DNA of 64,000 nucleotides from Phycisphaerae bacterium. GTDB taxonomy: Bacteria; Planctomycetota; Phycisphaerae; UBA1845. The notes under the pieces were generated by a model, which worked only from the letters and a program-made list of their open reading frames with translations, was not told the origin of the DNA and did no database searches. The DNA lies in the NCBI GenBank assembly GCA_024102815.1, contig JAGFJJ010000069.1:14950-78949 (forward strand), read 5' to 3'. Of this stretch, positions 1 through 11,244 are shown piece by piece (positions within the stretch are counted from its first letter, which is position 1; every line of letters begins with the position of its first letter). The translations under genes and the position numbers were made by a program.

Positions 1-1273
1 AGCGGTAGCGCTGGTCAACGATTCCCTTTCCTCGCGCGATACCGCCCTGGCGCTACGGCTCTGCCGGGCCGAATCCACGCTCAACCAGCTTTACGAGCGC
101 GATTTCGAGCAGATTCGCAGCGCGCTGCGCGGCGGAGGCGATACCGACAATCTGCTCACCGCGCTCTACATCTTCCACTACCTGGAGCGCATGGGAGATT
201 CCCTGCTGAATATCGGCGAGGCGGTCCTTTTCGCGGCCACCGGTGAAAAGCTGAAGCTGCACGATTACGTCCGCCTGCGCGAGGCCCTTCAGTCATTCCA
301 GCCGGATACGTCGATGGGCAACTACTCCATCGAATTCAGTTGGGAAACGCGCTCCGGCTGTCGGATCGCGAAAGTCGAAGAGAAGGGCGAGGACGGAAAC
401 GATCTGGAGGCGATCTTCAAGAAAGGGCACCTGGACAAGCTCAAGAAGGAAGAGGGCAATATCCGTCGATGGGAGAAGATCCTGCCAGGCGTCCCACCGC
501 AGATCCTCCAGTTTCGTGAGGGCGAAGAGGACGCCGCGCTTCTCCTGGAGTTTCTGGACGGGTTCACGTTCCGTGATCTTGTTCTCAATGCCGAAAAGCG
601 GATGGTCCGGCAGGCCCAGTCGGAGCTGGAGCGGGTCCTCGATCTTGCCTGGGAGCGGACGCGCCGGAATGAGGCCTGCAACGCGGAGTTCGTCAAGCAG
701 GCAACTACAAGGCTGGACGACGTCTACCGTCTGCATCCCGAGTTTGCCGCCGGCGGGTACCGCGTCGGGACGTTGGCGGTGTCGTCTCTGGAGGATCTCC
801 TGAAGCGGAGTACGGAGGTCGAGCGCACGCTGGGCGCCCCATTCAGTGTTCTGATCCATGGCGACTTGAATACGGACAATATCATTTTCAACCACCGCGA
901 GGGGACCATTCACTTCATCGACCTGCACCGCTCGCGGGAATCGGACTACGTACAGGATGTCTCCGTGTTCCTGGTCTCCAATTTCCGCATGCCGGTTTTT
1001 CATGGCGGTGTGCGCGACACACTCAACGGTGTGGCGTCGTCCTTCTTTGAATTTGCTCGAGGCTTCGCCGAACGCCAAAAGGACGGCACGTTTCCCGCAC
1101 GACTGGCTTTGGGGCTGGCGCGATCCTTCCTGACATCCACGCGATTCGAAGTGGATGGCGACTTTGCGAAGATGATGTACCTCAGGGCGGTCTATCTGCT
1201 GGAACGCGTGGTGGATCACGCCCCGCGCTCCTGGGAAGAGTTCGAATTGAGCACGGACGTGCTGCTTTATTGA
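1..1273 (+). CDS. PhoU-like N-terminal domain fused to an aminoglycoside-phosphotransferase (APH/choline-kinase)-like kinase domain; 5' partial (frame open to window edge). First gene of GAK-type cassette
   Basis: The frame of the 191 ORF has no stop back to position 2, so the gene starts upstream of the window. N-terminal segment LERMGDSLLNIGEAVLF resembles the PhoU signature (E..GD....NIaE). C-terminal half carries the Brenner kinase motif HGDLNTDNIIF followed by IDL (APH-like HGDxxxxN...ID). The stop overlaps the next gene's start (TTGA/ATG at 1270-1276). Confidence 0.6.
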   Translation, partial: AVALVNDSLSSRDTALALRLCRAESTLNQLYERDFEQIRSALRGGGDTDNLLTALYIFHYLERMGDSLLNIGEAVLFAATGEKLKLHDYVRLREALQSFQPDTSMGNYSIEFSWETRSGCRIAKVEEKGEDGNDLEAIFKKGHLDKLKKEEGNIRRWEKILPGVPPQILQFREGEEDAALLLEFLDGFTFRDLVLNAEKRMVRQAQSELERVLDLAWERTRRNEACNAEFVKQATTRLDDVYRLHPEFAAGGYRVGTLAVSSLEDLLKRSTEVERTLGAPFSVLIHGDLNTDNIIFNHREGTIHFIDLHRSRESDYVQDVSVFLVSNFRMPVFHGGVRDTLNGVASSFFEFARGFAERQKDGTFPARLALGLARSFLTSTRFEVDGDFAKMMYLRAVYLLERVVDHAPRSWEEFELSTDVLLY

Positions 1274-2208
1274 GGATGGATGCGCGGAGCAGCGCCGGGA
1301 AAGGTGTGAACAGGGTGGAAGCGGAACCCCCGTCGATTGCGGTCATCGGCCTGCCGGGAGGCTGGTCGACGAAGATGCTCGTCGAAGCCTTCAAGCGCTG
1401 CGGCTGCGAGACCGCCTTGTGGGACGCCCGAGGACTCACGCTCGACCTAGACCAGGGGAGGGTCTGGGGCGGCGCCGAACGTATTCTGGTCGATGCCGTC
1501 GTTCTCAAGAAGATCGGCCGGACCTATGCTCCGCGCATGCTGGATCGGCTTAGCGTCCTGAACTGGCTTGCGCAGCGCGGTACACCCATTTTTTCCCGAC
1601 CAGCCAATCTCAAGCGGGTGCTGGACCGCCTGAGCTGCACGGTCGAGCTGTCCTTGGCGGATATACCCATGCCGCCCACCGTTGTGACAGAGGACATCGA
1701 TGCAGCGGTCCGGGCCGTTGAGACATTCGGGCGGGCCGTGCTCAAGCCCGTGTATACCTCCAAGGCCCGCGGCATGCGCGTGGTCGATTCCGGTCTGGCC
1801 GCTCGCTCCGCGATCGAGGAGTTCCGCGATGAAGGCCACGCCCTTGTGTACGTGCAGAAGCTGCTCAAGCTTCCCGGTCGCGATCTCGGCTTGGTATTCT
1901 GCGGAGGGCGGTATCTGGGCAGCTACGCCCGCGTCGGGAAGGCGGATTCATGGAATACGACGACCGCCTCCGGCGGGAAGTACGCGCGGGCCGAGCCCGG
2001 CGACGACATCGTCGCCCTGGCCCACAAGGCGCAGGCTGTATTCGGCCTGGATTTCACCTGCGTGGATATTGCTGAAAGCGAGATTGGACCGGTCGTGTTC
2101 GAGGTCTCGGCCTTTGGCGGATTCCGCGGCCTGTGGGAAGCGGAAGGAGTGAATGCGGCCGATGCCTACGCCCGGCACGTCCTTTCGCGAATCAGCCGTG
2201 AGCAATAA
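1270..2208 (+). CDS. ATP-grasp enzyme, RimK/CofF-like (GAK-system ATP-grasp candidate)
   Basis: 312 aa; size and features typical of RimK-family ATP-grasp ligases: N-terminal pre-ATP-grasp region, central VLKPVYTSKARGMRVV and C-terminal FTCVDIAESEIGPVVFEVSAFGGF. Start is TTG 1270 or ATG 1276, overlapping the upstream stop (translational coupling). Confidence 0.65.
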   Translation: MRMDARSSAGKGVNRVEAEPPSIAVIGLPGGWSTKMLVEAFKRCGCETALWDARGLTLDLDQGRVWGGAERILVDAVVLKKIGRTYAPRMLDRLSVLNWLAQRGTPIFSRPANLKRVLDRLSCTVELSLADIPMPPTVVTEDIDAAVRAVETFGRAVLKPVYTSKARGMRVVDSGLAARSAIEEFRDEGHALVYVQKLLKLPGRDLGLVFCGGRYLGSYARVGKADSWNTTTASGGKYARAEPGDDIVALAHKAQAVFGLDFTCVDIAESEIGPVVFEVSAFGGFRGLWEAEGVNAADAYARHVLSRISREQ

Positions 2209-3322
2209 CTTGACCACCATCGCCGCGCTGGAGAAGTCGTTGCTGGCCGGTCAGGTCTGCGGCACGTCCCTGCGCCTGAAGTTCGAAGATTTTTCGATTG
2301 CTGTCCGCACCAACTCCGGGCAGTTGCGCAATGAGCTTGTGCATTACTATCGCCCCTTTGTGCAGCAAGGGGAACCGTTCACCGAGCAACGACCCGATGA
2401 TAGTGTTTCGGTGGTGGACGGCGACGCGCCCGTCGTGGGCATCCCGCTTCAGGACGTTCCCCTCGATCCAGGCAAGACGCGACGCAAGGAAGCGGTGGCC
2501 GACCTCGCCGACGGGCGCGTGGTCCTCAAGGTGCGGACGGGCATGTTGTTCTTGATGGGTCCATCGTCGGCAGTGGCCGTCGGACCGGCCCTTCGCAACA
2601 CGAATCAGATCATCAATTTCATCGACAGCCGTTACCTGCGCTGGCGTCTGGATCGAGGCGGCGTGCTGCTTCACGCCGCCGGCGTGCGCGGGCCTGGCGG
2701 TGGGGTGGTCATCGCCGGGCTTTCCAACCGCGGAAAATCAACGCTTGCGCTGCGACTCGTCGGGGCGGGGTTGGATTTCATCAGCAATGATCGCGTCGTT
2801 GCGCAAAAGAGCAGCGACGGCTTGATCATGTACGGATTGCCCAAGCAGCCCCGGGTAAACCCCGGCACCATCGTCACCAACCCGATCCTGCGCAGTCTGA
2901 TCCCGGAATCGCGCCGCAATGCGCTTTCAGAGCTTTCTCCCGATGAACTCTGGCGGCTTGAGGACAAGTACGATGTGGACATCGAGGCTTGCTTCGGCGA
3001 AGGTAAACGCGTGCTGTCCAGCCCGCTTCGGTGTGTCGTCGTCTTGAGTTGGAAACGGGGTGAAGGTCCGCCGCGATTGAATCGGGTGAATCTGGCGTCC
3101 CGGTCCGACCTGCTTGCCGCACTGATGAAATCCGTCGGCGTCATGGTCGGCGGGTCGATCAATCCCGATGTCCGTCGGCCTCGTCCCCAGGCGTATCTTG
3201 CTGCGCTGGACGGCTGCCCGGCATACGAATTGGGGGGCGGGGCAGACTTCGACTGGGCGTGCGAAAACGTGATGTCATTGATGAACACTCCGAAAACCAT
3301 CCCGGGTGGGGGACAGCCATGA
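2198..3322 (+). CDS. HprK-related P-loop serine kinase family protein (HprK-related kinase B-like)
   Basis: Walker-A-like GVVIAGLSNRGKSTLALRLV resembles the HPr kinase C-terminal domain P-loop (G.SG.GKSE). Start is ambiguous: ATG 2153 (56-bp overlap), GTG 2198 or TTG 2210; GTG 2198 chosen. Stop TGA overlaps the ATG of the next gene (ATGA at 3319-3322). Confidence 0.6.
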   Translation: MSNNLTTIAALEKSLLAGQVCGTSLRLKFEDFSIAVRTNSGQLRNELVHYYRPFVQQGEPFTEQRPDDSVSVVDGDAPVVGIPLQDVPLDPGKTRRKEAVADLADGRVVLKVRTGMLFLMGPSSAVAVGPALRNTNQIINFIDSRYLRWRLDRGGVLLHAAGVRGPGGGVVIAGLSNRGKSTLALRLVGAGLDFISNDRVVAQKSSDGLIMYGLPKQPRVNPGTIVTNPILRSLIPESRRNALSELSPDELWRLEDKYDVDIEACFGEGKRVLSSPLRCVVVLSWKRGEGPPRLNRVNLASRSDLLAALMKSVGVMVGGSINPDVRRPRPQAYLAALDGCPAYELGGGADFDWACENVMSLMNTPKTIPGGGQP

Positions 3323-4536
3323 GTCCCAGCGACGTTCCGGCCCCCGTCCGCGTTCCCATACACCGGACGCACCGCGTTCCCGACCGCCTCCGCCTCATGC
3401 GCTTCCGCAAGGCGCCGGAATACGGTCCGCGCGTGCTCTTCTTCAGCGGAGGCACGGCGCTCAATCCCCTCAGCCGGGCCCTCGTCGAATACACGCACAA
3501 TTCCATCCACCTGACGACACCCTTTGATTCCGGCGGAAGCTCGGGGAAGTTGCGGGGCGCTTTTGACGTCCCCGGTGTGGGGGACTTGCGCAGCCGACTC
3601 ATGGCCCTGGCGGACCGCAGCGTGCGCGGACAATCCGACATTTTCAATCTCTTCGCCCATCGGCTTTCCCAGAAGGCCTCGGCCGAGGAATTGCGTCGCC
3701 GGCTTGAGGCGATGATCGACGGCAATGATCCCCTGGTTTCCGCCATCATGGACCCCATGCGCAAGCTGATCCGCAATCACTTGCGGCACTTTTACGAGGG
3801 GATGCCGGCCGACTTTGACCTTCGCGGGGCGAGCATCGGGAATCTCGTTCTCGTCGGCGGATACCTCAACAACCGCCACGAGATTGATCCCGTCGTGTTT
3901 CTTTTCTCTCGGCTTGTCGAAGTAAAGGGAACCGTCGTTCCCACCGTCACGGGTGACCTGCACCTTGCGGCACGGCTTGGGGACGGCAATCTTGTGGTTG
4001 GCCAGCACCGCATGGCCGGTAAGGAATATCCCCCGATCGGCAGTCCGATACGCGAGCTGTTCCTGGTCAAGGATCTTGAAGCCAAGACACCCTGTCGCGT
4101 ATCCATCGACGAGCGTGTCCGCCGACTCATCGGACAAGCCGATCTCATCTGCTTTCCGATGGGCAGTTTCTTCTCCAGCGTCGTGGCCAACCTGCTTCCA
4201 GCCGGTGTCGGCGCCGCTGTGGCAGCCAACCCTTGCCCGAAAGTCTATATCCCGAACACGGGAACCGATCCGGAGCAGTTCGGGCATTCCGTCGCAGATT
4301 GCGCGGCCATTCTTGTACGAACGCTGGCGGCTGATTGCGGCGCCAAAGCGAAGGTGGACACGCTTCTGACGCACGTGCTCGTGGACAGCCGGACCAGTGC
4401 CTACGCCGCGGCGGTGGATATGGAGGCGATCCAGTCGCTGGGGCTCTATGTCATTGACGCGCCGCTTGTGACAGACGAATCGGAGCCTAATCTTGATGAA
4501 GATCGGCTCCTTTCCGTGCTGCTGTCCATGAGCTGA
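3319..4536 (+). CDS. CofD/YvcK-family protein (2-phospho-L-lactate transferase-like; GAK-system CofD-like candidate)
   Basis: VLFFSGGTALNPLSRAL matches the N-terminal GGGTG/GGA nucleotide/phosphate loop of the CofD/YvcK (UPF0052) family. Size about 405 aa. ATG 3319 is preceded by GGGTGGGGGA and overlaps the upstream stop. Confidence 0.65.
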   Translation: MSPSDVPAPVRVPIHRTHRVPDRLRLMRFRKAPEYGPRVLFFSGGTALNPLSRALVEYTHNSIHLTTPFDSGGSSGKLRGAFDVPGVGDLRSRLMALADRSVRGQSDIFNLFAHRLSQKASAEELRRRLEAMIDGNDPLVSAIMDPMRKLIRNHLRHFYEGMPADFDLRGASIGNLVLVGGYLNNRHEIDPVVFLFSRLVEVKGTVVPTVTGDLHLAARLGDGNLVVGQHRMAGKEYPPIGSPIRELFLVKDLEAKTPCRVSIDERVRRLIGQADLICFPMGSFFSSVVANLLPAGVGAAVAANPCPKVYIPNTGTDPEQFGHSVADCAAILVRTLAADCGAKAKVDTLLTHVLVDSRTSAYAAAVDMEAIQSLGLYVIDAPLVTDESEPNLDEDRLLSVLLSMS

Positions 4537-4575
4537 TGTCGTCGTTTACGAAGTGATTCCATCGGAGATTAACAG

Positions 4576-5241
4576 GTGTCAACAAACCAGAGAGCACGAA
4601 TCGTCGAGATCATTCGGGGTGCCCGAGTCAGCGCGATTATCCGCACCAACAGCCGGGATTCCGCCGCACGAGCCATCGACGCCGCTGTCGAAGGGGGTTT
4701 CCGCATGGTCGAATTCACGCTGACGACGCCGTCCGCGTTGGAGCTGGTTGCGGAGTTTGCCCGCCGGGACGGGCTCCTCGTGGGGGCGGGCACGGTGCTC
4801 AGTCCCGAGGCCGCCCGCCAGGCGGTTCAGGCCGGTGCGCGTTTCCTGGTTTCGCCCGTTTGCGATCCGCCCGTTCTTGCCGAAGCCGCTCGATTGGATG
4901 TGCCGACCATTCCGGGGGCGTATACGCCGACGGAAATGCTCGCCGCATGGCGCCTCGGCGCCGATTTCGTGAAGCTCTTCCCCGCCCCGCCGGGCGGTGC
5001 GGACTACGTTCGGGCGATTCGCGGCCCGCTCCCCGATCTGCCGATATTCCCAACAGCCGGCGTCACGCCGGAGAACTTCACCGAGTTCCTCGACGCGGGT
5101 TGCGTGGGCGCAGGGTTTGTCGCGACGCTCTTCCGACCGGATGACATTGCCCACCGGCGTTTCGATGCCATTCGCGATCGGGCGGCAGCGATCTTCACCC
5201 GTCTTCGGGCGTGGACCGAATCTCACCGCGCCGCCGGCTGA
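4576..5241 (+). CDS. eda: 2-dehydro-3-deoxyphosphogluconate (KDPG) / 4-hydroxy-2-oxoglutarate aldolase
   Basis: 221 aa. Motifs MVEFTLTTP, GAGTVL, KLFPA and PTAGV align with E. coli Eda (VLEVTLRT / GAGTVL / KFFPA / PTGGI). GTG start at 4576 with GGAGATT RBS 5 nt upstream; 39 bp after the CofD-like stop, same strand. Confidence 0.8.
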   Translation: MSTNQRARIVEIIRGARVSAIIRTNSRDSAARAIDAAVEGGFRMVEFTLTTPSALELVAEFARRDGLLVGAGTVLSPEAARQAVQAGARFLVSPVCDPPVLAEAARLDVPTIPGAYTPTEMLAAWRLGADFVKLFPAPPGGADYVRAIRGPLPDLPIFPTAGVTPENFTEFLDAGCVGAGFVATLFRPDDIAHRRFDAIRDRAAAIFTRLRAWTESHRAAG

Positions 5242-6581
5242 TCCTGCCACCCTTTGGGCGGAAGTTCTCTCAGGCTGCTGGGGACTCAAGCTTGACGATC
5301 GCGCAATTGGCCCAACATCCTTCAGCGGTTTTCGGTCCGCGAGTCGCTGCCGCCCAGCCGCTGGACGAATCGCAGGTCGCGCGGCGGCTGGAATCATCCA
5401 CCGAACTTGCGACTTGGGTCTCGTGCTGTGAAGCCGCTCCCGAGGCCCTGTTGGTCATCAACGATTCTCACCGCAGCACGTGCACGCGCGAGGTGCTCAC
5501 CGCGCTGGCAACGTTGCTGGGGCGGCAGTCAGCGAGTCCGTCCTTTCGCGTACTGGTCGCCACCGGCACGCATCGCATTTCCAACGCCGAACAGAGGCAC
5601 TTCGAGTCCCGAACAATTCTCGATTGCGGCTTGCGGATTTCAGCCGTCGTCTGGCACGATGCCCGCAGCGAGTGCCTCGCGCCATTCGCCGGCGTCCGCG
5701 TTCATCCCTGGCTTGTGGAACTTGATTGCTGGCTGGCCGTCGGCAGCGTCGAGCCTCATTATTTCGCCGGTCTGACCGGCGCCCACAAGACGGCGACGAT
5801 CGGTTGCATGTCCAAGGCGGACATCGAATCGAATCATCGCGGCGCGCTCCATCCGGGGTCGGACGTGCTCTGTTTGCATGGCAATCCCGTGCATGAGGGC
5901 ATTGCGCAGGTTCTCCGAGAATTCTCGGCGTGCGGGAAACACCTTCTGGCGATCAATGAAATCGTGGCCGAGCGGCATATCCTCGAACTCGCCGTGGGCG
6001 ATCCGCTTTCAACCCTGGAGTTGTTGCTTCCCCAGGTCCGCTCGGTCTACGTTCACGCCGTTCCTGGACCGGCCGACCTGCTTCTGCTCCATGTTCCCAT
6101 GCCGCTTGGCCGCAGCCTCTACCAGGCGGACAAAGCCCTCAAGAACAACCATCGCGCCGTTCGCGATGGCGGGGCGATTCTTCTCGAAGCCGACTGTCCC
6201 GACGGTGTCGGGGACGATGCCTTCCTGGGACTGCTGGATCGCGCTCCTGACTACGCCTCGGCCTGTCGCCTTGTCGAACAGGAGGGCTATCGCCTCGGAG
6301 ATCACAAAGCTGTCAAACTGCGTCACCTGACCGATCCACTGATGCGGGGTGTCAGGGTTGCGGTCGTTTCGGCAAACCTTTCCGATGAGTTGGCACGCCG
6401 CGCCGGTCTGCGAGCGTTTGCGGATCGCGCCGAGGCCCTCCAATGGCTCGCGGGTGCGTGCAGCGGCTCGATGCAGAACACGATCGTCGTGAACGACGCG
6501 GGATTTGTGGTCGTGATGCCCGCGGAAAACGGCGCGCCGAACCCTGGTCCGGCAGCGGACTTCAATCTGCACGACCAATGA
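5211..6581 (+). CDS. LarA (lactate racemase, DUF2088) family protein
   Basis: VATGTHR and SVEPHYFAGLTGAHK resemble the LarA N-terminal-domain Ni-pincer cofactor-binding motifs; length about 430 aa if the start is near 5290 (TTG). True start uncertain; the track ORF overlaps the eda end. Confidence 0.5.
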   Translation: MDRISPRRRLILPPFGRKFSQAAGDSSLTIAQLAQHPSAVFGPRVAAAQPLDESQVARRLESSTELATWVSCCEAAPEALLVINDSHRSTCTREVLTALATLLGRQSASPSFRVLVATGTHRISNAEQRHFESRTILDCGLRISAVVWHDARSECLAPFAGVRVHPWLVELDCWLAVGSVEPHYFAGLTGAHKTATIGCMSKADIESNHRGALHPGSDVLCLHGNPVHEGIAQVLREFSACGKHLLAINEIVAERHILELAVGDPLSTLELLLPQVRSVYVHAVPGPADLLLLHVPMPLGRSLYQADKALKNNHRAVRDGGAILLEADCPDGVGDDAFLGLLDRAPDYASACRLVEQEGYRLGDHKAVKLRHLTDPLMRGVRVAVVSANLSDELARRAGLRAFADRAEALQWLAGACSGSMQNTIVVNDAGFVVVMPAENGAPNPGPAADFNLHDQ

Positions 6582-6589
6582 TGTCTGCG

Positions 6590-9376
6590 TCATGGCAGGC
6601 CGGTTGTCGCGGAGTCGATGATTTCCCGAAGGCGCGCGAGAAGCCGCTGGGCCTCGTCGGTGTTACCGCTGCGCACCGCCTCCAGCACCGGCACAGCCGC
6701 CTCCGATACCTCGGAGAATCCCACGATTCCGCTCGTGCCCACCATCTGGTGGAGTATCTCCCGAGCTTCCGCGAATGCGCCGCGTTCGATGGCTTCTTGC
6801 AGCGTCTCCGCCCGGCGGGGAAGTTCTCTCGCGTATCGATGGCGTACCTCGTCCATTTGGGCAGTGTTGTCGGGCGGAGGTTGCGATTCCCGGGTTTCCA
6901 CATCGGCGCTTTGCAGATAGGCCGCTGAACGCTCGATCAGCGTATCAAGCGGTATGGGCTTACTCCAGAAATCATCAAAGCACGGATCAACGACGTGAAG
7001 GTTGTTGGCTCCGGACACGGACGCCGTCAAGGCGATGATCGGTGCCAGACATCCCCGACGCCTCAGCTCGCGACCGGCCGCGTTCCCATCCATGCCCGGC
7101 ATGCGAATGTCCAGCAGAATGAGGTCGAAGGGCTGCGCCACGGCCTCGCAAACCGCTTCGTGCCCGTCGCCGACGAGCACGACCTCCGCGCCCGCACCAC
7201 GCAGGGCCAGTCCCAGCAACTCCCGCGCGTCCGGGAAATCGTCTGCGATCAGCACGCGACCTTTCAACCGACGGGACGTTGCGCTCGCCCCCGAACGCAA
7301 TCGGTGGAGCTCCGCATAGGCATCTTCAGGAGTCAAACGGGATTCGTCCGCGCAGTTTCCGATCGCGACGCGCAGGGTGAACGTGCTTCCCTGTTCTTCA
7401 ACGCTCGTGACATGAATGTCGCCGCCCAGTTGTTCAGCGATCCAACGGGTCAACGAAAGCCCGAGCCCCGCGCCGACCTTCCCCGCAATGGGCTGGCGAT
7501 CCAGTTGCGCAAAAGCTTCGAAGATGCCCTCCAGGCGCGAAGACGGGATCCCGACGCCGGTATCCGCGACGGCGAAGACAACGTGCCTCTTGTCCTCTCC
7601 TGTTCGGACTTGAAGGAGAATATGGCCCGCATGCGTAAACTTGAAGGCGTTGTTCAGGAGATTGACGATGGCCTGTTTGAGTCGCGTGGCATCCGTATGG
7701 ATCACCGCCGGAATCGCATCAACAACCTCTACACGAAACTCCACGTCGGGTGAGCGACCCAGCGACTCCACGATGGCACAACAATCCGCGATGACGGAAA
7801 CGAGCGATACGTCCGCGCAATCGACCTGCAGTTTTCCGGCTTCGATCCGCGCCGCGTCCAGGAGGTCGTTGATCAGCGAAAGAAGGTACTCCCCGTTTCG
7901 GACAATGGTCTCCAGCCGCCGTGGCAGGTTCTTGGAGGATTCGCGATTCACCAGCTCCGCGGCGCCGAGCATGGCCGTGATCGGTGTTCGAATCTCGTGG
8001 CTGATGTTGGCCAGAAAGCGACTCTTGGCCTGCGATGCCGCCTCCGCCGCCGCTTTCGCCCGGCGTAATTCCACTTCGGCGCGCTTTTTCTCCGTAATGT
8101 CCGTGGAGACGCCGCAGACCGCATAAACCCGGCCGTCCAGGTCATGGAGAGGAAACTTCACGGAAAGGTAAATGTGCTCGCCGTCGTCCTGCGGCACCCG
8201 TTCTTCAAACTCAATGGGAACGCCGGTGTCGCGCACGCGGCGGTCGTTGGCCTGGAAGGCTTCAGCGTAGTTCGGCGTAAACAGCTCGACATCGGTGTGT
8301 CCCACAATCTGATCGCGCGTAAAGTGGAACATCTGTTCAAAGACCCGGTTCGTCAGGATATACCGCCCGTCTGCGGCCTTCGCGTAGATAACCGCCGGGG
8401 AATTGTCCACGATCGTCTGGATTCGTTTCTCGCTCTCGTCCAGCGCCGTGACCGCCTGCACCCGTTCCTCGACCGCCCGCCTGACCTGTTCGTATGAGTC
8501 AGACAGGGCTCGCGTCCGCTCCTCCACCCGCCGCTCAAGCGATTCCCGCGCCTCCCTCAGCTCCTGCTCCGCGCGGTGCCAGTCCGTAATGTCGGTGATG
8601 AATCCTTCAAGCGCCTGCAAGTTCCCCGCCGCGTCGAAGACCCCTCGTCCCTGTTCCCAGACGACTTTCTCGACGCCCTCGGCCGTCCTGATCCGGTAGG
8701 TCATGCGAAAGGGCTGTCGCCGATCGACGCCTTGCTGGACGGCGTTCCAGACAAGCTGCCGGTCCTCCTCATGAATAACGTCCGCGTAGGCAACGAGCCG
8801 ATTCTCAACGATTGCCTCCGCGGCGTATCCGGTCAGTTCCGCACAGCCTTCGCTGACGAACTCCATCGTCCAGTCGGCGTCATTGCGGCAGCGGTACGCC
8901 ATACCGGGCAGGTTGCTCAGCAATGTGGACAGTGCCCGCTCGCTTTCCCGCAGGCGATCGGACGTCAGTTTCCGCTCCGTCATATCCGAGCCGATGCCGA
9001 GGAAGGCCGCTTCGCCGCGATAGCGGACGGGTGACGTAACGTAGTCCAGCCAGAGTGTACGCCCATCCTTGCGGAGGATCCGAATTTCGTAGCGGGAAAT
9101 GCTGGGACGGTCGATGGACTGGCCCGGACCCCAGGCCTGTGCAATGGTCCGAGCGTCCGGATGGAGAAGCGCCCGGAGCTCCAGGCCGACCATCTCTTCC
9201 ATCGGGTAACCGGTTAGTTCGCAGGTCTGTTCGCTGGCATAGACGATGCGCCCCTCCCGATGCACCCAGAGCGCTGCCGGGATTGCTGCAATGACGTGCG
9301 CCAGTACGTCGCTGCAGTCACTCAGCAGCGATTCGTCTGAAATTGTCTCGCCGCGGGTCGCTTTCATCCGAGACAT
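6590..9376 (-). CDS. Multi-sensor hybrid histidine kinase (PAS-PAS-PAS-HisKA-HATPase_c-REC-Hpt)
   Basis: 928 aa. H-box SHEIRTPITAMLGAAELV; HATPase G-boxes DTGVGIPSSRLEGIFEAF and GAGLGLSLTRWIAEQLGG; receiver LILLDIRMPGMDG; C-terminal Hpt-like HQMVGTSG; three N-terminal PAS-like segments. Confidence 0.85.
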   Translation of the reverse strand: MSRMKATRGETISDESLLSDCSDVLAHVIAAIPAALWVHREGRIVYASEQTCELTGYPMEEMVGLELRALLHPDARTIAQAWGPGQSIDRPSISRYEIRILRKDGRTLWLDYVTSPVRYRGEAAFLGIGSDMTERKLTSDRLRESERALSTLLSNLPGMAYRCRNDADWTMEFVSEGCAELTGYAAEAIVENRLVAYADVIHEEDRQLVWNAVQQGVDRRQPFRMTYRIRTAEGVEKVVWEQGRGVFDAAGNLQALEGFITDITDWHRAEQELREARESLERRVEERTRALSDSYEQVRRAVEERVQAVTALDESEKRIQTIVDNSPAVIYAKAADGRYILTNRVFEQMFHFTRDQIVGHTDVELFTPNYAEAFQANDRRVRDTGVPIEFEERVPQDDGEHIYLSVKFPLHDLDGRVYAVCGVSTDITEKKRAEVELRRAKAAAEAASQAKSRFLANISHEIRTPITAMLGAAELVNRESSKNLPRRLETIVRNGEYLLSLINDLLDAARIEAGKLQVDCADVSLVSVIADCCAIVESLGRSPDVEFRVEVVDAIPAVIHTDATRLKQAIVNLLNNAFKFTHAGHILLQVRTGEDKRHVVFAVADTGVGIPSSRLEGIFEAFAQLDRQPIAGKVGAGLGLSLTRWIAEQLGGDIHVTSVEEQGSTFTLRVAIGNCADESRLTPEDAYAELHRLRSGASATSRRLKGRVLIADDFPDARELLGLALRGAGAEVVLVGDGHEAVCEAVAQPFDLILLDIRMPGMDGNAAGRELRRRGCLAPIIALTASVSGANNLHVVDPCFDDFWSKPIPLDTLIERSAAYLQSADVETRESQPPPDNTAQMDEVRHRYARELPRRAETLQEAIERGAFAEAREILHQMVGTSGIVGFSEVSEAAVPVLEAVRSGNTDEAQRLLARLREIIDSATTGLP

Positions 9377-9657: not shown

Positions 9658-10152
9658 ATGATGATCTCCGAGGCGATGAACGCCCGACTTAACCGTCAAG
9701 TCAGCATGGAATTTGCAGCTTCGCACAAGTATCTGGCCATGGCCTGCGCGTTCGATGCCATGGGATTCAAGATTCTCTCCAAGCGCTTCCGCCTTCAGGC
9801 TGACGAGGAACGCGACCACGCCATGAAGATTCTCGATTACGTGCTGGAAGTCAACGGCCGGGCCGATCTCGAGCAGGTTCCCAAGCCGTCGGGGAAGTAC
9901 GAGTCCGTTGAGCAGATTGTGAAGACGGCTCTCGAAAGTGAGCTTGAAGTCACGCGCAGCATCAACGAGATCGTCGCTCAGGCTGAGTCGGAGAAGGATT
10001 TCGCCACGCGTAGCTTTCTCCACTGGTTCGTCGACGAGCAGGTCGAGGAAGTGGCCAGCATGACGGAATTGCTCGATCTCGTGAAGCTTGCCGGTCCGAA
10101 CATCCTGCTCGTCGAGACGCGCGTGTTCCATCAGATGCAGGCCGGCAAGTAG
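9658..10152 (+). CDS. ftn: Ferritin (non-heme, Ftn-like)
   Basis: MMISEAMNARLNRQVSMEFAASHKYLAMA...EERDHAMKILDYV...FLHWFVDEQVEE is a ferritin-like four-helix diiron fold. ATG 9658 is preceded by GGAAAGGTGAGCG. The longer track ORF from 9343 is a non-coding 5' extension. Confidence 0.8.
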   Translation: MMISEAMNARLNRQVSMEFAASHKYLAMACAFDAMGFKILSKRFRLQADEERDHAMKILDYVLEVNGRADLEQVPKPSGKYESVEQIVKTALESELEVTRSINEIVAQAESEKDFATRSFLHWFVDEQVEEVASMTELLDLVKLAGPNILLVETRVFHQMQAGK

Positions 10153-10194
10153 CGGCCGTCGCGCGATAGTCAGCAATGGCAGAGAGCAATCATC

Positions 10195-11244
10195 ATGAAC
10201 CAGCCGATTGACCTGCGCAGCGACACCGTCACCCGTCCGTCCGCGGCCATGCGCCGTGCCATGGCGGAAGCCGAAGTGGGGGACGACGTCTTCGGCGACG
10301 ATCCCACCGTCAATCGGCTTCAGGACATGGCCGCATCGCTGCTCGGCAAAGAGGCGGCCCTGTACGTCCCTTCTGGTTCGATGGCGAACCAGTCGGCGAT
10401 CCGTGCTCAAACGCAGCCCGGTGACGAGATCGTCGCCCACCAGGACAGTCATATCTACCATTACGAGGCTGGGGCGCCATCGGGTCTTTCCGGCTGCTCG
10501 CTGCGACTGCTGAACGGCGATCGAGGTCTATTCACGGCCGATGACGTGCGCGCCGCGGTGCGTCCGCCGGATTCCCACTATCCGCGGTCCGCCCTCATCG
10601 TTGTTGAGAACACGCACAACCGGGGGGGCGGAAGCATCTGGTCGATCGAGGAAATCGCTCGAATTCGCGCGGTCGCCGACGAAAACGATCTTCGCATGCA
10701 TCTCGACGGAGCGCGCCTGATGAATGCGTGCGTCGTCCGCGGGGTGAAGCCGACCGAGTACACCCGCTATTTCGACACGGTTTCTACCTGTTTTTCCAAG
10801 GGGCTCGGCGCCCCGGTCGGCTCCGTTATAGCTGGTTCCAGTGAGGTCGTTCGCCGTATTCACCGCTTCCGGAAAATGTTCGGGGGCGGCATGCGCCAGG
10901 CGGGAATTATCGCCGCGGGCGCGCTCTATGCCTTGCAGAATAACATCGAGCGCCTCGCCGAAGACCACGCCAACGCCCGCCGCTTGGCCGAAGCACTGGC
11001 CGAAATGCGACATTTGAAATGCGACCTGGACGCGGTCGAAACCAACATCGTCTACTTCAATGTCGATCCCGATTACGGTACGGCCAAGTCGGTTTGCGAG
11101 TCTTTCAAGGCTGCCGGAGTATGGCTGCTGCCCGTTGCGCCGCAGCGCGTGCGTGCGGTGACCCATCTCGACGTGTCTTCGGCCGACATCGAATCAGCCA
11201 TCAAGTTGATCCACGCCTGCCTGCGCGAGCCGTTGCCGGCCTGA
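10195..11244 (+). CDS. ltaE: Low-specificity L-threonine aldolase
   Basis: N-terminal [13 protein letters not shown] region SGSMANQ, and [11 protein letters not shown] (Schiff-base Lys region) are classic threonine aldolase motifs. 349 aa. Confidence 0.85.

What the first reader, a model, noticed from the sequence alone, without database searches (positions are those of the whole stretch)
1..6581. GAK-type four-gene cassette (APH-like kinase, RimK-like ATP-grasp, HprK-related kinase, CofD-like transferase) coupled to eda and a LarA-family gene: candidate uncharacterized small-molecule/cofactor pathway
Seen in sequence: four consecutive same-strand genes with overlapping stop/start codons (1270-1276, about 2198-2208, 3319-3322). 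Motifs are an aminoglycoside-phosphotransferase-type kinase (HGDLNTDNIIF...IDL), an ATP-grasp ligase, an HprK-type P-loop (GLSNRGKSTLAL) and a CofD/YvcK loop (FFSGGTALNPL). From memory, TIGRFAMs defines an uncharacterized 'GAK system' made of exactly these components (ATP-Grasp, Aminoglycoside-phosphotransferase-like, HprK-related Kinase B, CofD-like); I believe no substrate or product is known. Inference: CofD transfers 2-phospho-L-lactate onto F0, and RimK/CofF-type ATP-grasps add glutamates in F420 biosynthesis. So the cassette parallels cofactor-tail assembly (phospho-transfer plus glutamylation) with two extra kinases. Here it is followed, 39 bp later and co-oriented, by KDPG aldolase (which releases pyruvate) and a LarA-family lactate-racemase-like gene. 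That would fit a route supplying a lactate- or pyruvate-derived building block, a linkage I have not seen described.
Basis: partly seen in the sequence, partly recalled or inferred. Interest (0 to 1): 0.8.

Follow-up and report, generated by a model that had tools for sequence, protein, structure and literature searches.

The report
GAK gene cluster with unrelated neighbours
The first four genes are an ordinary copy, cut at the window edge, of the widespread 'GAK' gene cluster, whose function is unknown. The aldolase and racemase-like genes behind it are lineage-specific neighbours, with no comparative evidence that they share a pathway with it.

Summary
Window 1-4536 encodes, co-oriented and with overlapping or nearly abutting ends, a PhoU+APH-like kinase (5' end outside the window), a GAK ATP-grasp, HprK-related kinase B and a GAK CofD-like protein. 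The three NCBIfam GAK models are passed well above their cut-offs. eda (4576-5241) and a LarA-superfamily gene (5292-6581) follow. The identical CofD-like protein already carries the NCBI name 'GAK system CofD-like protein' (Phycisphaerae MAG).

None of 80 species-level GAK loci carries eda or a LarA homologue. None of 83 LarA-homologue loci carries a GAK gene. Only one sister organism shares the arrangement. A further relative has eda-LarA-ferritin-threonine aldolase, as in the window, but without GAK.

The cluster is larger than four genes. Upstream, outside the window, lie an amphi-Trp protein, an orphan ~390-aa protein ('c5') and, in the sister organism, a further amphi-Trp protein. Across phyla, c5 alternates with a phosphatase/NUDIX gene set, and PhoU, Pst and CHAD genes recur nearby. 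The CofD-like protein is closer to YvcK/GlmR than to CofD.

My best reading is a phosphate-linked, reversible phosphorylation/ligation system. This is an inference. GAK function remains unknown.

The parts
2..1273 (+). 3' 423 codons of the 546-aa PhoU-domain + APH-like kinase fusion. This is the 'A' component of GAK. Its first 123 codons lie upstream of the window.
   Evidence: Frame open from base 2. Pfam PhoU and APH. Full-length identical protein P0241. The AF2 model has pLDDT 90. Its PhoU half matches PhoU structures at TM 0.84-0.88, and its kinase half is nearest APH(3'), ethanolamine, MTR and fructosamine-3 kinases.
1276..2208 (+). GAK system ATP-grasp enzyme (RimK/LysX/MptN-like carboxylate-amine ligase). 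An alternative start is TTG 1270.
   Evidence: TIGR04356, 385.7 bits against a cut-off of 300. The gene call starts at 1276. The closest solved relatives are LysX/ArgX and RimK.
2162..3322 (+). HprK-related kinase B (P-loop GLSNRGKS). An alternative start is ATG 2153. It overlaps the ATP-grasp stop.
   Evidence: TIGR04355, 371.3 bits against a cut-off of 200. There is only a local P-loop match to HprK/P structures. The family is small: 295 cluster representatives at E<=1e-30 among 1.84 billion.
3319..4536 (+). GAK system CofD-like protein (CofD/YvcK superfamily). ATGA overlap with the previous gene.
4576..5241 (+). KHG/KDPG aldolase (eda). It is an adjacent gene, possibly co-transcribed, and is not a GAK component.
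   Evidence: TIGR01182, 168.5 bits against a cut-off of 156. Absent from all 80 GAK loci. Paired with a LarA homologue but without GAK in L086.
5292..6581 (+). LarA-superfamily protein, a putative nickel-pincer-dependent 2-hydroxyacid racemase/epimerase of unknown substrate. An alternative start is GTG 5211. It is not a GAK component.
   Evidence: Pfam Lar_N and LarA_C. Below all NCBIfam equivalog cut-offs. The alignment to 6d6z/2yjg keeps the two catalytic His, the cofactor Lys and the NH motif. None of 83 homologue loci carries a GAK gene.
6590..9376 (-). Convergent hybrid sensor histidine kinase. It marks the 3' boundary of the co-oriented gene run.
   Evidence: ORF and translation. 64% identical in the sister organism. 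Absent from the syntenic block in L086. Only generic ~30% similarity to kinases in other GAK loci.
9664..11244 (+). Ferritin (about 9664-10152; start inferred from the 162-aa homologue in L086) and a threonine-aldolase-like gene (10195-11244). They serve as synteny markers showing that eda-LarA belongs to a separate block.
   Evidence: The order LarA-like, ferritin, threonine aldolase is seen in L086, L097 and L101, and LarA-like followed by ferritin in L098, all without GAK.

Best explanation
Window 1-4536 is the 3' part of a canonical GAK cluster of a Phycisphaerae bacterium.

The complete unit in this organism and its sister reads: amphi-Trp small protein, orphan ~390-aa protein 'c5', amphi-Trp small protein (FxHESLQD type), PhoU+APH-like kinase, RimK/LysX-like ATP-grasp, HprK-related kinase B, YvcK/CofD-like protein. 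Gaps are 2-15 nt or the genes overlap, so it is very probably one operon.

eda and the LarA-superfamily gene that follow belong to a different, lineage-specific syntenic block (eda, LarA homologue, ferritin, threonine aldolase). They may be read through from the GAK promoter, but nothing indicates that they are functionally part of GAK.

How GAK most likely works is an inference, not something shown. I read it as a phosphate-status-linked, ATP-driven, reversible modification cycle, not a cofactor-tail assembly line.
- 'Writers': two kinases, one carboxylate-amine ligase, and one CofD/GlmR-type enzyme that makes or transfers a nucleoside-diphosphate-activated group.
- 'Erasers': c5, or, in Proteobacteria and one planctomycete, a set of histidine phosphatases, NUDIX hydrolases and a metallophosphoesterase.
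- A PhoU module couples the system to phosphate.
- The target is either the always co-encoded amphi-Trp proteins or a phosphorylated, NDP-activated small molecule.

My probabilities are about 0.85 for the anatomy and for the independence of eda/LarA, and about 0.35 for the writer/eraser mechanism.
For: Membership:
- The three GAK NCBIfam models are passed.
- The identical protein is already named GAK in NCBI.

Extent of the cluster:
- L091, from the same organism (window base 1 = L091 base 1222), shows the c5 C-terminus, a 96-aa amphi-Trp protein and the start of PhoU-APH, with 15-, 6- and 2-nt gaps.
- The sister organism (L092) shows the full order.

Census of 80 species-level loci:
- All four core genes are present in 46 loci.
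- 44 of those also have amphi-Trp (TIGR04354/PF20068).
- 30 have c5 and 14 have the phosphatase/NUDIX/metallophosphoesterase set. The two never occur together, and together they cover 44 of 46. The other two loci are cut upstream.

Phosphate theme:
- The PhoU module is fused to the kinase.
- A PhoU-LMW-phosphatase fusion replaces it in Solidesulfovibrio loci.
- PstSCAB, a Na/Pi-PhoU transporter and a CHAD protein are adjacent in Gammaproteobacteria.

Chemistry of the nearest relatives:
- YvcK/GlmR is a UTP:GlcNAc-1-P uridyltransferase (PMC10128056), and CofD/FbiA transfer from NDP-activated donors.
- The GAK protein keeps the first catalytic Asp (D70).
- The ATP-grasp is nearest LysX/ArgX/RimK, which act on small proteins (PMC12998189, PMC10375531).
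- HprK homologues phosphorylate a Ser of HPr or of lasso-peptide precursors. [quoted passage not shown]

Independence of eda/LarA.
Against: - No experiment exists for any GAK protein.
- The substrate is unresolved and the clues conflict. The APH-like domain's structural neighbours are all small-molecule hydroxyl kinases. The best non-GAK hit of the ATP-grasp is MptN, a cofactor-tail glutamate ligase (136 bits). HprK and LysX/RimK relatives point to protein substrates.
- c5 has no detectable homologue. Its 'eraser' role rests only on its complementary distribution with the phosphatase set and on invariant His/Asp/Glu motifs.
- That complementary distribution largely follows taxonomy, so it may reflect few evolutionary events.
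- The phosphate-gene neighbourhood is clear only in a minority of loci.
- The tight 39-nt junction, the absence of a predicted terminator and conservation in the sister organism mean a clade-specific functional recruitment of eda/LarA cannot be excluded.
Confidence: 0.7

Rival explanations
1. GAK plus eda plus the LarA-like gene form one pathway. Eda releases pyruvate, LarA supplies the right enantiomer of a 2-hydroxyacid, and the CofD-like enzyme transfers a phospho-2-hydroxyacid onto an acceptor that the ATP-grasp then glutamylates, as in F420 or methanopterin tails.
For: - The genes are co-oriented with a 39-nt gap and no terminator-like site.
- The order GAK-eda-LarA is kept in the sister organism.
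- MptN is the best non-GAK hit of the ATP-grasp.
- LarA enzymes act on 2-hydroxyacids (PMC7583248, PMC11770544).
Against: - None of 80 GAK loci has eda or LarA.
- None of 83 LarA-homologue loci has a GAK gene, and only 1 of 50 with enough upstream DNA has eda.
- L086 shows eda-LarA-ferritin-threonine aldolase without GAK.
- LarA homologues are near-universal and multi-copy in Planctomycetota (PMC11770544).
- The LarA-like protein's substrate is unknown. It is nearest malate racemases and below every cut-off.
- The CofD-like protein is closer to YvcK/GlmR.
Confidence: 0.06
2. GAK alone, without eda/LarA, is a biosynthetic pathway for a small molecule such as a cofactor, second messenger or phosphorylated osmolyte. 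In this model the amphi-Trp proteins are scaffolds or regulators and the phosphatases are pathway steps.
For: - The APH-like domain is nearest small-molecule hydroxyl kinases.
- The CofD/GlmR superfamily acts on small molecules (PMC10128056).
- MptN is the best outside hit of the ATP-grasp.
- NUDIX hydrolases typically act on NDP-X compounds (established knowledge of the family).
Against: - One to three small proteins of one family are conserved as tightly as the enzymes (44 of 46 loci).
- Up to five hydrolases per locus are unusual for a biosynthetic route.
- The PhoU fusion suggests signalling.
- HprK relatives with known substrates act on proteins or peptides (PMC8498205).
Confidence: 0.25
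3. GAK is an anti-phage or inter-genomic conflict system.
For: - The kinase domain gives a weak Pfam hit to TCAD9, a 'ternary complex associated domain' (22 bits, below its cut-off of 40).
- A glycosyltransferase in some Solidesulfovibrio loci (879-aa cluster representative) hits GT4-conflict.
Against: - None of the four core proteins has a meaningful PADLOC hit.
- Gene order is stable across phyla, in chromosomal phosphate-metabolism neighbourhoods.
- There is no compositional anomaly (GC 0.60-0.65 throughout).
Confidence: 0.03

Closest known systems
GAK system as defined by NCBIfam/TIGRFAMs (TIGR04355 HprK-related kinase B, TIGR04356 ATP-grasp, TIGR04357 CofD-like, with TIGR04358 XXXCH-domain and TIGR04354 amphi-Trp proteins)
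   Same: All three enzyme models are passed above their cut-offs. A PhoU-APH kinase lies upstream, in the same gene order as in 46 of 80 loci from other species. An amphi-Trp gene lies directly upstream.
   Different: No XXXCH-domain gene is seen in the DNA available for this organism or its sister. That gene is present in only 21 of 80 loci. This clade alone has eda and a LarA homologue downstream.
YvcK/GlmR (UDP-GlcNAc-binding accessory uridyltransferase of Firmicutes/Actinobacteria)
   Different: - The score is below the TIGR01826 cut-off (110 against 196).
- The second catalytic Asp is an invariant Ser.
- The profile alignment leaves roughly 50 GAK positions (about 117-165) unmatched by YvcK, which I read as an insertion.
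- There is no yvcJ-glmR-whiA context.
CofD/FbiA (2-phospho-L-lactate / phosphoenolpyruvate transferase of F420 biosynthesis)
   Different: 13-14% identity. No hit to a CofD equivalog model at E<=0.01, and none by PDB sequence profile. None of the conserved neighbour families I annotated is an F420 gene; no targeted search for F420 genes was run.
RimK / LysX-ArgX / MptN / CofF alpha-L-glutamate-type ATP-grasp ligases
   Same: Clear homology: MptN 136 bits, RimK family 110 bits, LysX 100 bits. LysX 3vpd/1uc8 and RimK are the best solved relatives.
   Different: The score is below every one of those models' cut-offs. The protein belongs to its own GAK equivalog. Its substrate is unknown.
HprK/P and HprK-related kinase A (lasso-peptide Ser kinases)
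   Same: Shared P-loop and following segment.
   Different: Only about 55 residues align. The N-terminal ~160 residues and the C-terminal part have no known relative. The family is small and sharply bounded.
LarA superfamily (nickel-pincer nucleotide 2-hydroxyacid racemases/epimerases) and Eda (KHG/KDPG aldolase)
   Same: The LarA-like protein keeps the catalytic His pair, the cofactor Lys and the NH motif. Eda passes TIGR01182.
   Different: The LarA-like protein fits no characterised subgroup (best: malate racemase LarAH5, 166 of 462 bits). Neither gene is associated with GAK outside one small clade.

Membership tests
GAK system | HprK-related kinase B (TIGR04355) at or above the curated cut-off | tested here: met
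   371.3 bits against 200, E 4.7e-111
GAK system | GAK ATP-grasp enzyme (TIGR04356) at or above the cut-off | tested here: met
   385.7 bits against 300
GAK system | GAK CofD-like protein (TIGR04357) at or above the cut-off | tested here: met
   541 bits against 340. The identical protein is named so by NCBI.
GAK system | Adjacent aminoglycoside-phosphotransferase-family kinase, here fused to PhoU | tested here: met
   Pfam PhoU + APH on window 2-1273. The 546-aa architecture is shared by more than 100 homologues.
GAK system | Conserved co-oriented gene order kinase, grasp, HprK-B, CofD-like | tested here: met
   All four genes lie within the locus in 46 of 80 species-level loci, most in the window's co-oriented order; the proteobacterial loci have the CofD-like gene divergent from the other three. 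The window has overlapping or abutting junctions.
GAK system | Associated amphi-Trp protein (TIGR04354) | tested here: met
   It lies outside the window: L091 557-847, 96 aa, 6 nt upstream of PhoU-APH. It is present in 44 of 46 complete loci.
GAK system | Associated XXXCH-domain protein (TIGR04358) | tested here: inconclusive
   None in the window and none in the 2.7 kb upstream in the sister organism. DNA further upstream was not available. It is present in only 21 of 80 loci.
CofD/FbiA (F420 2-phospholactate/PEP transferase) | Sequence membership in a CofD equivalog | tested here: not met
   At E<=0.01 only TIGR04357 and TIGR01826 are hit. The PDB profile search finds only YvcK-type chains. 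13-14% identity to 3c3d/6uvx.
CofD/FbiA (F420 2-phospholactate/PEP transferase) | Context of other F420 biosynthesis genes (cofC/E/G/H) | not tested
   None of the conserved neighbour families I annotated in the 80 loci is an F420 gene. No targeted search for cofC/E/G/H was run, and the rest of the genome was not available.
YvcK/GlmR | TIGR01826 at or above the cut-off | tested here: not met
   110.4 bits against 196
YvcK/GlmR | Catalytic Asp-Asp pair (Lm D40 D41) | tested here: inconclusive
   The first Asp is kept (invariant D70). The second position is an invariant Ser71 (PMC10128056).
Eda (KHG/KDPG aldolase) | TIGR01182 at or above the cut-off | tested here: met
   168.5 bits against 156.05. 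Pfam Aldolase 131.7 bits.
Lactate racemase LarA (equivalog) | NF033504 at or above the cut-off | tested here: not met
   104.3 bits against 460
LarA superfamily | Lar_N and LarA_C domains, with the catalytic His pair and the cofactor-binding Lys | tested here: met
   Pfam 59.2 and 26.2 bits. GTHR, EPHYFAGLTGAHK and NH motifs align with 6d6z and 2yjg.
LarA superfamily | Presence of the cofactor biosynthesis genes larB/larC/larE in the genome | not tested
   I did not search for them. The rest of the genome is not available.

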